The notes beneath the pieces are model-generated. The model did not search any database. It had not been told where the DNA came from and saw only the letters and a list, made by a program, of their open reading frames with translations. Below are positions 19,663 through 21,405 of a DNA stretch of 59,399 bases, piece after piece. The position numbers and the translations under genes are program-made. Source of the stretch: a virus. Lineage: Duplodnaviria; Caudoviricetes. Positions within the stretch are counted from its first letter, which is position 1. Every line of letters starts with the position of its first letter. Location: positions 1-59,399 of the IMG/VR virus record IMGVR_UViG_3300043399_001226. The stretch is one strand, 5' to 3'.

Positions 19663-21405
19663 CTATGCTCTTAATTGTAAGTCTATTTGTATATCCTGAT
19701 TTGGAGCTGCAGCTAGTCCTATATCTACCTGATACCAATCAAGAAGTAATTGGTTCATTAATGCTAAAGGAAAGGAAGTAATAAAGATATCAGTAACTTG
19801 TATCGGATTACCAGTATTAGGAAACCTAGCTTGAAATACTATATTATGATTAGCTCCAGCTATTGTTACTGGTACTGTTACCTGATATATACCAGCGACA
19901 CCAGCAGGAAGTGCTCCTCCTACGAGTACTGGTATTGGTGCTGGTGCTCCTGGCGCTGGTACTGCTCCTGTTGCTGACGTTCCTGCTACTAATTCCCAAG
20001 GATTAACACCACCTACAAATGCCAATTGTTGATTTGCTGCTGGTGGTATTGGAGGCAATAATATATCATTTCTTAATCTAGCAGTTATGTTACCTGCTCC
20101 CGGATTTACCGTGTCTAACTGGTCAGCCTGATGCATTATATAGTTAAACAATAGGTTGTTTTCTAATCTTGTTAAAGTATCAAGTACTCTACGTGTAGCA
20201 GCAGGGATTACTCCTAAACCACCTAAAGTTGTATAATCATATCTATAATAAATATTATTACCGATAGCATCATGAGCTGTTATTAACAATGACCATAATC
20301 TCCTTGTAGCATCAACAACGCCTCTAGGAGCCATAGGCATTCTGTCTCTAATATTGGGAAAATCATATACATCATTACTAATACTTGTGTACCCATTATT
20401 GGCATTAAACATAGCTAAATCAACAAACATAGCATTAGTAATTAATGCTGCTGGTTCTCTTATACATTCTAATCGATACAAATCTCTAAAAATTCTTACA
20501 AGTTCTTGTTCATCAGCGTTTATTAGGTTAATTCCTCTAAAAACGTTTCTCAACAGAGTAAAAGCATCCCTGTTATTGATGTCATCAGCATAAGGTCCCC
20601 AACTTCCTACTTCGGTTCCTTCAAAATTTCCTCCTTTTTGTAAGTGCATAGTAGTTGATGGACCTTGATTAGGGATACTAGCTTTAAGAGTTCTATTATA
20701 TCTGGCACCTGCATTTCCTCTAAGCTCTCTTACTGCTCTAATATTTTGTCTTGCTAGTAGCTTATGAATATAATGTACAACATTTAATTCATCAAAAAAA
20801 TTCATAGGGGGGTTAAGAGCAGGAATAATAGCATGATTGATTGCATAATCATTGTAAAGATTATGTATATCAAGAGCAGAAACATCCTCGTCATCTACTG
20901 GAAGAGCACCTGCTGCAGCTGCTCCTAATGCTGTACCTCCATTCGCAACCGTAGCTCCACGTTGGTTGTTATTATTTCCTGCTGGTGCTGCTATAAAATT
21001 AATATAGTCTGCAGCAGTCGGTAAAACAGCGGGAACTAGTGGTGGTCCTACAACAGCAGGAACCATCACTACACCAAACTCATTATTTGCAATGATTAAA
21101 TCAATATTATCATGATTTCTAGGAGCTGGAAAAGATACTCCATTATTACTAAAAGGAAACAAACAATCATATTTAGAAAACAGCTTTAGATGTTCTGGAG
21201 TTGCAATTGGTCCTATTGGACCAAGTACTGTAGCATCAGCATGCTCTCTATGAGTAAGTGCATATAAAGCAACTGTACGTAATAATACTGAAGCAGCTTG
21301 TACTCCAATAACTCCAATAGGAGTTTGTAAAGTACCATTATTAAATGCTATTGTTGCAAGTATTCCTCCTGCTGGAACTCTCCGTAAATAATTATGTAAT
21401 GCCAC
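19663..21405 (-). CDS. Unknown Ala/Gly/Pro/Asn-rich, Lys-depleted protein; candidate effector or toxin
   Basis: 580-aa ORF with a GTG start 2 nt after the upstream stop; only 5 Lys. Confidence 0.75.
   Translation of the reverse strand: MALHNYLRRVPAGGILATIAFNNGTLQTPIGVIGVQAASVLLRTVALYALTHREHADATVLGPIGPIATPEHLKLFSKYDCLFPFSNNGVSFPAPRNHDNIDLIIANNEFGVVMVPAVVGPPLVPAVLPTAADYINFIAAPAGNNNNQRGATVANGGTALGAAAAGALPVDDEDVSALDIHNLYNDYAINHAIIPALNPPMNFFDELNVVHYIHKLLARQNIRAVRELRGNAGARYNRTLKASIPNQGPSTTMHLQKGGNFEGTEVGSWGPYADDINNRDAFTLLRNVFRGINLINADEQELVRIFRDLYRLECIREPAALITNAMFVDLAMFNANNGYTSISNDVYDFPNIRDRMPMAPRGVVDATRRLWSLLITAHDAIGNNIYYRYDYTTLGGLGVIPAATRRVLDTLTRLENNLLFNYIMHQADQLDTVNPGAGNITARLRNDILLPPIPPAANQQLAFVGGVNPWELVAGTSATGAVPAPGAPAPIPVLVGGALPAGVAGIYQVTVPVTIAGANHNIVFQARFPNTGNPIQVTDIFITSFPLALMNQLLLDWYQVDIGLAAAPNQDIQIDLQLRA

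What the first reader, a model, noticed from the sequence alone, without database searches (positions are those of the whole stretch)
19663..21405. 580-aa protein with extreme lysine depletion
Seen: only 5 Lys in 580 aa (under 1%) in an AT-rich genome whose other proteins are Lys-rich; Arg is retained. Pro/Ala/Gly-rich linkers flank a central globular core (LYRLECIREPAALITNAMFVDL...RMPMAPRGVVDATRR). Established: lysine scarcity is a known way for toxins entering the eukaryotic cytosol to avoid ubiquitination. Inference: a cytosolic toxin or effector. The ExxRxPAA...MxxDL...MPMA core looks like a conserved enzymatic motif that I cannot name with confidence.
Basis: partly seen in the sequence, partly recalled or inferred. 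Interest (0 to 1): 0.7.

Follow-up and report, generated by a model that had tools for sequence, protein, structure and literature searches.

The report
Lysine-free cargo protein in Megaira phage
A phage that infects a bacterium living inside protist cells carries an extra, fast-evolving gene whose protein has been purged of almost all lysines, the residues that eukaryotic cells tag for destruction, which suggests that the protein has to survive in the cytoplasm of the protist.

Summary
The 580-aa ORF (19663-21405, minus strand) has 5 Lys and 32 Arg. Residues 258-580 hold no Lys at all, while the other 55 ORFs of 100 aa or more average 8.9% Lys. The window is a complete 59.4-kb contractile-tailed phage, probably a phage-plasmid. 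Its accessory genes match only plasmids of Candidatus Megaira polyxenophila, a Rickettsiaceae symbiont that lives in protist cytoplasm. The ORF and a 200-aa acidic ORF upstream form a translationally coupled two-gene cassette inserted between the sheath and tube genes. The cassette is accessory: 39 of 40 related phage loci have sheath and tube adjacent without it. It evolves five times faster than its neighbours, yet still avoids lysine. Its folded core belongs to an undescribed family with no Pfam, PHROG, NCBIfam or PADLOC hit and no PDB fold match. That family is found in 28 of 400 Rickettsiales genomes and in 0 of 400 other Pseudomonadota. The Rickettsiales members are Lys-rich and sit beside ankyrin, Fic, patatin and conjugation genes. 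Best reading (about 0.4): a late-expressed effector, released at lysis or carried on the virion, whose lysine desert protects it from the protist ubiquitin system. No toxin fold or activity is shown.

The parts
19663..21405 (-). 580-aa lysine-poor protein (large gene of the cassette), GTG start; the N-terminus M/V-A-L-H is shared by most homologues
   Evidence: 16 homologues; 58 representatives at E<=1e-3
21408..22010 (-). 200-aa acidic, Lys/Glu-rich partner gene (10.5% K, 10.5% E). It is found only with the large gene in this phage lineage.
   Evidence: same pair in L002, L005 and L006
21403..21416 (-). Coupling junction: GGAGAG (21411-21416) inside the last codons of the small gene, TAA stop (21408-21410), 2 nt, GTG start (21403-21405)
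19666..20634 (-). Lysine desert, residues 258-580 (323 aa without Lys); it covers the conserved core and the C-terminal domain
19996..20643 (-). Conserved helical core, about residues 255-470. Family-wide residues are Y272, E313, R316, L330 (invariant in A2) and T323, M326, F327, P357-M358-A359, V364, Y389-D390 (>=90%).
19666..19908 (-). C-terminal alpha/beta domain, about residues 500-580, with the FPL...WY.V(D/E)L motif shared with Rickettsiales homologues
20881..21075 (-). Pro/Ala/Gly-rich low-confidence linker, about residues 111-175
19906..19998 (-). Pro/Ala/Gly-rich linker, about residues 470-500. Contigs of other strains break here.
22038..23072 (-). Tail sheath gene (upstream flank of the cassette)
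   Evidence: DUF3383 7e-27, phrog_205 6e-82
19179..19604 (-). Tail tube gene (downstream flank of the cassette)
   Evidence: KPP10_Orf10 1e-6, phrog_280 8e-35

Best explanation
The ORF is the large gene of an accessory two-gene cassette that a Megaira phage lineage acquired and placed inside its late tail operon. It combines a phage-specific N-terminal region of about 250 residues with a core of a Rickettsiales-specific protein family that has an unrecognised fold. It is made late, together with the virion proteins (inferred). It reaches the cytoplasm of the protist that houses the bacterium when the bacterium lyses, or as a virion passenger (inferred). There it acts on a host target not yet known. 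Selection has removed every dispensable lysine, mostly by Lys-to-Arg (AAA to AGA) and Lys-to-Ala/Asn/Gln changes. This leaves the protein with few acceptor sites for ubiquitin and lets it escape proteasomal turnover, the same logic as the lysine-poor A chains of ER-routed toxins (inferred by analogy). The small acidic partner is probably a chaperone or inhibitor that holds the large protein in the bacterium (inferred; not shown).
For: SHOWN. (1) The lysine depletion is extreme and specific: obs/exp 0.15 against 0.55-1.48, and a 323-aa desert. (2) Lysine is selected against. Between the window and its sister phage L002 only 5 of 163 amino-acid differences in this protein involve Lys, against 98 of 592 in the other 15 syntenic proteins. 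Yet 163 of 580 codons are one mutation from Lys, and 24 of 32 Arg codons are AGA. Where Lys-richer homologues have Lys, the window most often has Arg (20), a gap (17), Ala (16), Asn (13) or Gln (12). (3) In all three phage loci with context the large protein has the lowest Lys of its neighbourhood: 0.9%, 1.1% and 2.7%, against 4.3-10.5%. (4) Host. The window's porin is 91% identical to proteins on Ca. Megaera polyxenophila plasmids. DNA matches of 80-92% in the accessory and recombination modules go only to Megaera plasmids, 3 of 3 and 6 of 6 records. Megaera lives in the cytoplasm of Paramecium (PMC13134042, passage). (5) The cassette is accessory. Of 47 IMG/VR loci with a related sheath, 40 show both sheath and tube. 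In 39 of these the two genes are 13-676 nt apart, with no family hit anywhere in the locus; only the sister phage has the cassette. In L005/L006 the same pair sits after the tube instead. (6) Fast evolution: dN/dS is 0.52 (large) and 0.64 (small) against 0.07-0.19 for 14 neighbours, and identity is 69% and 43% against 74-95%. (7) Family. The profile hits 28 of 400 Rickettsiales genomes but 0 of 400 other genomes of the phylum sample. Neighbours include ankyrin-repeat, Fic, HEAT and patatin genes and conjugation genes. 1 of 36 long members scanned carries N-terminal ankyrin repeats. The 6 Rickettsiales genomes tested (G001 and 5 others) gave no match to the window's sheath protein. (8) No terminator-like site on the coding strand inside the cassette, and an SD sequence embedded in the small gene's end. 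ESTABLISHED KNOWLEDGE. Lysine paucity of ricin, cholera and pertussis A chains and its proteasome link (PMC13696103, passages). Rickettsia parkeri masks outer-membrane lysines by methylation to avoid ubiquitylation (PMC8232902, listing and start of abstract).
Against: No export signal, toxin domain, catalytic family or known fold was found. The Rickettsiales homologues are Lys-rich at 7-14%, so a cytosolic role of the family, itself unproven, does not require lysine loss. Depletion is graded among phage homologues: 0.6-2.9% in the near clade, 2.3-8.4% further out. The hosts of those phages are unknown. The other virion proteins are not depleted: capsid 6.2%, sheath 7.8%. Glu is also low (2.4%), so part of the signal is a general loss of charge. 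A place inside the tail operon fits a virion part as well. Presence in the protist cytosol is not shown. The only RNA hint is four 151-nt contigs in one metatranscriptome, which may be DNA carry-over.
Confidence: 0.4

Rival explanations
1. An accessory virion protein: a tail decoration, a passenger bound through the phage-specific N-terminal region, or a 'cloak'. Its low charge and lack of lysine would serve assembly, or keep the exposed particle from being tagged in the protist cytoplasm. It would have no effector activity of its own.
For: It lies between sheath and tube, or tube and chaperone, in the late operon. The two next-lowest Lys contents in the window belong to the capsid cement protein (2.9%) and an unassigned ORF in the head-gene region, 28839-29471 (3.3%). 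The N-terminal region of about 180-250 residues is specific to the phage forms. The flexible P/A/G linkers fit a tethered surface domain.
Against: No PHROG or Pfam structural family matches. It is absent from 39 of 40 related tails. dN/dS of 0.52 is unlike the structural genes around it. Homologues occur in 6 tested Rickettsiales genomes that gave no match to the window's sheath protein. Capsid and sheath keep normal lysine.
Confidence: 0.25
2. A protein aimed at bacteria. It is either delivered with the DNA (through the tail, or through a conjugative type IV system for the plasmid homologues), or it acts in superinfection exclusion, counter-defence or a toxin/immunity pair with the small ORF. 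Lysine loss would then evade a bacterial lysine-directed tag or protease, or be incidental.
For: Homologues lie directly beside the T4 coupling protein and relaxase genes in L026, beside MobA/MobL in L024, and downstream of VirB9-VirB11-VirD4 on Rickettsia plasmid pRNTEN_1. The two-gene, translationally coupled layout resembles toxin/immunity or chaperone/cargo pairs. MazF and PIN toxins are neighbours in L029 and L026.
Against: No PADLOC model matches either gene. At least one member, in L033, is chromosomal between DnaA/DUF6314 and a patatin gene, away from mobile genes. No ubiquitin-like conjugation system was looked for or seen in the host. The small partners of the phage and Rickettsiales genes are not detectably related.
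Confidence: 0.15
3. No adaptive meaning. A fast-evolving, weakly constrained cargo gene drifted to an Ala/Gly/Pro/Asn-rich, low-charge composition, and lysine loss is a by-product.
For: dN/dS is raised. Glu is depleted too. Lysine content varies among close homologues, 0.6-2.9%. Indels and contig breaks in the linkers show local plasticity.
Against: The desert covers the conserved, confidently folded core (pLDDT 85.6), not only the linkers. Arg is kept at the highest obs/exp level of the large ORFs (0.76) while Lys is at 0.15. Under drift, with 163 codons one step from Lys, differences involving Lys should be near the 17% of the neighbours, not 3%.
Confidence: 0.1

Closest known systems
Lysine-poor catalytic A chains of ER-routed AB toxins (ricin A, cholera toxin A1, pertussis S1; Hazes and Read hypothesis, as reviewed in PMC13696103)
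   Same: Extreme Lys paucity with Arg retained, in a protein made by or for a microbe that must persist in eukaryotic cytosol. Composition is not explained by GC.
   Different: No RIP or ADP-ribosyltransferase domain, no B subunit, no signal peptide and no ER route. The fold is unrecognised, and no toxicity is shown.
Lysine deserts (Szulc et al. 2023, PMC10665810; review PMC13696103), including the enrichment reported in Mycobacterium phages and linked to pupylation
   Same: A continuous Lys-free region of 323 aa (56% of the protein) exceeds the 150-residue criterion quoted in the review. The protein is phage-encoded.
   Different: Those phage cases lie in GC-rich Actinobacteria, where composition confounds them, and the proposed tag is Pup. 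Here the genome is 33% GC and Lys-rich, and the candidate tagging system belongs to the eukaryote that houses the bacterial host.
Phage-borne eukaryote-directed cargo of symbiont or pathogen phages (Stx in lambdoid late operons, APSE toxins of Hamiltonella, the eukaryotic association module of Wolbachia phage WO); these comparisons are recalled, not tested
   Same: An accessory gene in the late region of a phage whose host lives with or in a eukaryote. Release by lysis would need no secretion signal.
   Different: No sequence or fold relation to any of them. The cassette sits inside the tail module rather than beside lysis or baseplate genes.
Lysine methylation of Rickettsia parkeri outer-membrane proteins (PMC8232902)
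   Same: A Rickettsiaceae strategy that removes ubiquitin acceptor lysines from proteins exposed to host cytosol.
   Different: That is a post-translational mask on many proteins. Here the lysines are absent from the gene of one protein.
Uncharacterised Rickettsiales proteins of 465-1351 aa that share the core (for example the 608-aa ORF of the Rickettsia endosymbiont of Bradysia coprophila and BEV28248.1 on plasmid pRNTEN_1)
   Same: Homologous core and C-terminal motif (hhalign probability 97%, E 6e-11; profile E down to 1e-159).
   Different: They have 7-14% Lys, other N-terminal regions and no phage context. Their function is also unknown.

Membership tests
AB-toxin catalytic A chain (RIP or ADP-ribosyltransferase) | Sequence match to a toxin catalytic domain family | tested here: not met
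   0 Pfam families at E<=0.01, 0 NCBIfam, 0 PHROGs
AB-toxin catalytic A chain (RIP or ADP-ribosyltransferase) | Catalytic-domain fold | tested here: inconclusive
   Domain model with pLDDT 85.6. No Foldseek PDB hit at E<=1e-3; best VIA-align Z 4.3 (rmsd 3.6, 68 aligned), within noise
AB-toxin catalytic A chain (RIP or ADP-ribosyltransferase) | Receptor-binding B subunit gene alongside, and signal peptides | tested here: not met
   The only partner is a 200-aa acidic cytoplasmic-looking ORF without any family. No signal-peptide predictor was available. By eye the N-terminus is not a conserved Sec or Tat signal, and the RR of the window is not kept in homologues.
AB-toxin catalytic A chain (RIP or ADP-ribosyltransferase) | Lys paucity with Arg retained | tested here: met
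   5 K against 32 R; obs/exp 0.15 against 0.76
Lysine-desert protein (criterion quoted in PMC13696103: continuous Lys-free stretch of 150 residues or more) | Lys-free run of at least 150 aa, not explained by composition | tested here: met
   323 aa; the next longest in the window is 122 aa; P(no K in 323) is 8.5e-14 at the window mean
Conserved myophage tail component (sheath, tube, chaperone, tape measure, fibre) | Match to a structural family and a conserved place in related tail modules | tested here: not met
   No PHROG or Pfam match. Absent from 39 of 40 related loci that show sheath and tube. Position differs between the window/L002 and L005/L006.
Phage moron or lysogenic-conversion cargo | Accessory presence, variable position, evolution uncoupled from the flanking module | tested here: met
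Phage moron or lysogenic-conversion cargo | Own promoter and terminator | tested here: not met
   27-nt and 58-nt gaps to the flanking genes. Promoter-like sites are at shuffle level (22 against 21.5). No terminator-like site on the minus strand.
Anti-phage defence system protein (PADLOC) | Match to a defence model | tested here: not met
   0 families for the large and small ORFs and for two Rickettsiales homologues
Secreted effector of Rickettsiales (type IV or other) | Demonstrated secretion or translocation signal | not testable with these tools
   Only neighbourhood hints (ankyrin, Fic, patatin, T4SS genes)

The most novel reading that the evidence does not exclude
A bacteriophage adapted to the host of its host. 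A phage of a cytoplasmic protist symbiont carries a new-fold effector, drawn from a Rickettsiales-wide family. It has been genetically stripped of ubiquitin acceptor lysines so that it survives in the eukaryotic cytoplasm after lysis or on the virion. This would be the first lysine desert in a phage protein tied to a eukaryotic ubiquitin system. It would also be a handle on an uncharacterised effector family of Rickettsia and its relatives.
Probability: 0.35. Interest if true: 0.85.

Novelty: new variant of a known kind. Interest (0 to 1): 0.68.

Why it matters
Few phages of obligate intracellular bacteria have been described. For Megaira, my searches turned up one named phage in print (MAnkyphage, cited in PMC10925606; the primary paper is not held). 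How such phages deal with the eukaryotic cell around their host is an open question. Here a lysine desert occurs in a Lys-rich, AT-rich genome, where composition cannot be blamed, and a direct substitution test shows that lysine is being avoided. That gives a clean natural case for the ubiquitin-evasion hypothesis, which the 2026 review (PMC13696103) calls unproven for phage proteins. The work also defines a protein family with a confident but unmatched fold. The family is present in about 7% of sampled Rickettsiales genomes and sits next to known kinds of effector genes. No description of a lysine-poor phage protein in an intracellular bacterium was found in the full-text searches.

Tried and rejected
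1. Naming the protein by sequence. Pfam, PHROGs, NCBIfam and PADLOC gave nothing. tblastn against INPHARED phages and PLSDB plasmids found no match. The ESM Atlas gave no usable hit.

2. Naming it by fold.
- The whole-protein model (pLDDT 62) and the domain model (pLDDT 85.6) were searched in the PDB with Foldseek, in BFVD (whole model only) and with VIA-align wide.
- The best results were E 0.09-0.6 and Z 5.1 and 4.3, all within noise.
- RelE-like and other small alpha/beta proteins appear at Z about 4 for the C-terminal domain. I do not read anything into that.

3. Is the small partner conserved with the Rickettsiales homologues? BLASTP gave E 0.003-0.02 on short stretches, and hhalign of the 13-sequence profile gave probability 0.2%. 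Rejected.

4. Do the small and large proteins bind? Complex prediction returned 'no answer' (score 0.00, controls not run). This is evidence neither for nor against binding.

5. Is a related prophage present in Rickettsiales genomes? The capsid protein matched 2 of 400 genomes, weakly (26% identity, E 2e-16; and E 4.5e-4). The sheath matched 0 of 6. So the phage itself was not found in the sampled genomes.

6. A Tat signal, suggested by 'RR' at residues 8-9, is not conserved in homologues. Rejected.

7. Expression.
- One RNA run holds four identical 151-nt contigs over 21021-21823 and none over the rest of the 5-kb stretch.
- Contigs cannot rank genes, and DNA carry-over is possible. This is a weak hint only.

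8. Naming the Rickettsia chromosomal orthologue from the literature. PMC11077975 has no passage on dnaA or phage. The Blepharisma plus endosymbiont search was uninformative. The primary paper on the Megaira phage is not held.

9. My own hmmsearch flagged 10 of the 12 fetched Rickettsiales loci. It did not flag the 608- and 609-aa ORFs of L033 and L030, although one search places matches (E 1e-13 and 6e-15) inside them.

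Full report
**The observation**

The minus-strand ORF 19663-21405 encodes 580 aa from a GTG start.
- It has 5 Lys (residues 74, 78, 215, 241, 257), 32 Arg and 2.4% Glu, and is rich in Ala, Asn, Gly and Pro.
- The 55 other ORFs of 100 aa or more in the window average 8.9% Lys (sd 2.8, minimum 2.9%).
- Scaled to each gene's own base composition, Lys is at 0.15 of expectation here and at 0.55-1.48 elsewhere. Arg is at 0.76, among the highest values.
- Residues 258-580 form a 323-aa Lys-free run. The next longest in the window is 122 aa.
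- The binomial probability of 5 or fewer Lys is 1.8e-17 at the window mean, and 7e-4 even at the lowest rate of any other ORF.
- The gene's GC (0.37) is close to that of the window.

**What the window is**

The window is a whole IMG/VR virus record with direct terminal repeats, rated complete.

The structural genes identified are:
- terminase with an intein, portal and a Mu-F-like protein;
- DUF2213 protein, cement protein and major capsid;
- neck proteins, DUF3383 sheath and KPP10-type tube;
- assembly chaperone, tape measure, Dit-like protein, plug, hub, spike and baseplate genes.

This is the E217/Pam3/KPP10 kind of contractile-tailed phage.

The window also carries ParA, MazF, YqaJ/RecT, a DnaA-N-domain protein, two porins, a solute symporter and a patatin-like lipase.

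The first porin is 91% identical in protein to genes on plasmids of Candidatus Megaera (Megaira) polyxenophila. DNA matches of 80-92% in the accessory and recombination regions go only to plasmids of that species, 3 of 3 and 6 of 6 records. The tail region and the 580-aa protein match nothing in PLSDB or INPHARED. The nearest annotated phages share about 26-31% portal identity.

The host is therefore very probably Megaira. This is a Rickettsiaceae symbiont that lives in the cytoplasm of ciliates (PMC13134042, passage) and of algae. With ParA and plasmid-like modules, the element looks like a phage-plasmid. Near-identical DNA is held by 20 listed runs from 17 studies, mostly freshwater metagenomes.

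**The gene is half of a mobile cassette**

A 200-aa acidic, Lys/Glu-rich ORF (21408-22010) lies directly upstream. Its last codons contain GGAGAG, followed by TAA, two bases and the GTG of the large gene. This indicates translational coupling.

The pair is flanked by the sheath gene (27-nt gap) and the tube gene (58-nt gap). There is no terminator-like site on the coding strand, and promoter-like sites are at shuffle level.

The sister phage L002 has the same order: sheath, small, large, tube. A more distant relative (L005/L006) has sheath, tube, small, large, chaperone. The two genes therefore move as a unit.

I then fetched 47 IMG/VR loci with a related sheath (24-83% identity).
- 40 show both sheath and tube. 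In 39 of these the two genes are 13-676 nt apart, and no member of either cassette family occurs anywhere in the locus.
- Only the sister phage has the cassette. A second, truncated contig has the small gene at its end.
- The 39 include AT-rich phages with about 50% sheath identity.

The cassette is thus accessory cargo, not a conserved tail part.

**How it evolves**

| Measure (window against L002) | Large protein | Small protein | 14 neighbours |
|---|---|---|---|
| Protein identity | 69% | 43% | 74-95% |
| dN/dS | 0.52 | 0.64 | 0.07-0.19 |

Despite this speed, only 5 of the 163 differing positions in the large protein involve Lys. In the other 15 proteins pooled the figure is 98 of 592. This holds although 163 of the 580 codons are one mutation from a Lys codon and 24 of the 32 Arg codons are AGA.

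Where Lys-richer homologues have Lys, the window has Arg most often, then a gap, Ala, Asn, Gln or Thr. At least three of the five remaining lysines (74, 215, 257) sit in columns where many phage-type homologues also have Lys.

In each of the three phage loci with context, the large protein has the lowest Lys of its neighbourhood: 0.9%, 1.1% and 2.7%, against 4.3-10.5%. This is direct evidence that lysine is selected against. It argues against drift or composition as the cause.

**The family**

The word-based search found only 16 proteins. The exhaustive profile search found 58 representatives at E<=1e-3 among 1.84 billion. They fall into two groups.
- Phage-type proteins (about 430-584 aa, plus fragments) share the whole length and have 0.3-8.4% Lys.
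- Long proteins (about 530-1351 aa, plus fragments) share only the region from about residue 185-255 to the C-terminus and have 7-14% Lys.

The shared region has Y272, E313, R316 and L330 invariant in a 32-sequence alignment. T323, M326, F327, P357-M358-A359, V364, Y389-D390 and W557-Y558 are conserved in at least 90%.

One long member is the 608-aa ORF of a Rickettsia endosymbiont of Bradysia coprophila (hhalign probability 97%, E 6e-11). The family profile matches 28 of 400 sampled Rickettsiales genomes. In a sample of 401 genomes of the whole phylum it matches only the centre genome itself.

Of 36 long members scanned, 35 have no Pfam domain and one has N-terminal ankyrin repeats.

Neighbourhoods in the Rickettsiales loci are as follows.

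| Locus | Neighbouring genes |
|---|---|
| L033 | DnaA, DUF6314, [member], 116-aa ORF, patatin-like lipase. Three further loci look syntenic by ORF sizes only. |
| L026 | TrwB coupling protein, TrwC relaxase-primase and a PIN toxin |
| L024 | MobA/MobL relaxase and transposases |
| L029 | two ankyrin-repeat proteins, MazF and a pentapeptide protein |
| L023 | a 1430-aa HEAT-repeat protein and an AAA/PDDEXK_9 protein |
| L032 | a Fic protein |
| plasmid pRNTEN_1 | the gene follows VirB9, VirB11 and VirD4 |

None of six such genomes tested has the phage sheath.

**Structure**

- The whole-protein model is of middling confidence (pLDDT 62, pTM 0.73).
- With a 58-sequence alignment, residues 255-580 fold confidently (pLDDT 85.6, pTM 0.87). 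The model is a helical bundle followed, after a short linker, by an alpha/beta domain.
- Nothing in the PDB or BFVD stands above noise: Foldseek E>=0.09, VIA-align Z 5.1 and 4.3.
- The fold is not a fibre, and I cannot assign an activity.

**Most likely mechanism**

Shown:
- an accessory, late-operon, translationally coupled, fast-evolving gene pair;
- a phage of a bacterium that lives in eukaryotic cytoplasm;
- a core shared with a Rickettsiales-restricted family that keeps company with eukaryote-directed and mobile genes;
- active avoidance of lysine.

Inferred: the protein is made late and meets the protist cytoplasm at lysis or on the particle. The lysine desert then denies the ubiquitin system its acceptor sites. 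This is what is proposed for the A chains of ricin, cholera and pertussis toxins (PMC13696103, passages). It is also analogous to the lysine methylation with which Rickettsia parkeri shields its surface (PMC8232902, listing). The small acidic partner may hold or silence the large protein in the bacterium.

I put this reading at about 0.4.

**What speaks against it**

- No signal, toxin domain or activity was found.
- The Rickettsiales homologues keep their lysines.
- The depletion is graded among phage homologues whose hosts I could not determine.
- Glu is low too.
- The cassette's place in the tail operon also fits a virion part.

**Rivals**

- An accessory virion protein or 'cloak' (0.25).
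- A bacterium-directed protein co-transferred with DNA, or a toxin/immunity-like pair (0.15). The conjugation neighbourhoods suggest this.
- Drift (0.1), which the substitution test disfavours.

**Comparison with what is known, and novelty**

The gene meets the lysine-desert criterion. It fails every tested membership criterion of AB-toxin A chains except composition, and it matches no known phage structural or defence family.

Lysine deserts in phage proteins have been discussed only for Actinobacteria phages and pupylation, with GC content as a confounder (PMC13696103). Full-text searches found nothing on lysine-poor phage proteins in intracellular bacteria. One Megaira phage is named in print (MAnkyphage, PMC10925606), but its primary paper is not held. 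I therefore cannot say whether the present phage or gene was described there. Supplements were closed.

I rate the finding a new variant of a known kind: lysine-depleted, cytosol-exposed microbial proteins. It rests on a new protein family and an unmatched fold.

Noticed in passing
window 1-59399: The whole window is a complete DTR phage genome with plasmid-like maintenance genes: ParA at 6597-7259, MazF at 7365-7700, and a DnaA-N-domain protein at 51318-52250. Its modules are 80-92% identical in DNA to Ca. Megaera polyxenophila plasmids. It is probably a phage-plasmid of Megaira. No tRNA genes were found.
   Followed up: partly
window 1013-2284 (+) and 4300-5571 (-): Two Gram-negative porin genes (Porin_4) are carried by the phage. 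The first is 91% identical to a porin on Megaera plasmids. A PD-(D/E)XK_2 (Rpn-like) gene lies at 3420-4286 between them.
   Followed up: partly
window 34691-35734 (-): A patatin-like phospholipase sits between the portal-side genes and a 1492-aa collagen-repeat protein. It matches PADLOC 'Effector phospholipase' models (159 bits) and the NCBIfam CBASS lipase model below cut-off (123 against 200 bits). No cyclase was seen nearby. The 695-aa ORF upstream (35727-37814) has no family.
   Followed up: partly
window 39337-41592 (-): The terminase large subunit carries an intein (Intein_splicing, residues 391-721).
   Followed up: no
window 30208-34686 (-): A 1492-aa protein has collagen triple-helix repeats and matches to head-decoration and tail-fibre PHROGs. 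It lies in the head-gene region.
   Followed up: no
window 45481-46929 (+): A sodium:solute symporter family gene lies on the phage genome. This is an unusual metabolic cargo for a phage of an intracellular bacterium.
   Followed up: no
proteins P0072 and P0077 (homologues of window 21408-22010): Two homologues of the small cassette protein are deposited as 'unnamed protein product [Blepharisma stoltei]'. Their accessions are 22 numbers apart, on a 601-kb contig of that ciliate's assembly. This is either symbiont/phage DNA in the assembly or a transfer into the ciliate genome.
   Followed up: partly
window 19900-20000, 20176-20390 and 20506-20584: In other public runs, contigs of near-identical strains break in the Pro/Ala-rich linker. 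One run shows joints that skip 213 and 77 bases inside the gene. The linkers are length-polymorphic in natural populations.
   Followed up: partly
L033 7310-9136 (also L028, L030 and L034 by ORF sizes): In Rickettsiales genomes of about 1.4-1.5 Mb, a Lys-rich family member occupies what looks like a conserved chromosomal site between dnaA/DUF6314 and a patatin-like phospholipase gene. Only L033 was annotated.
   Followed up: partly
window 25861-26487 and 28839-29471 (-): After the 580-aa protein, the lowest lysine contents in the window belong to the capsid cement protein (2.9%) and an unassigned 210-aa ORF in the head-gene region (3.3%). Whether exposed virion proteins of this phage are generally lysine-poor was not tested.
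   Followed up: no
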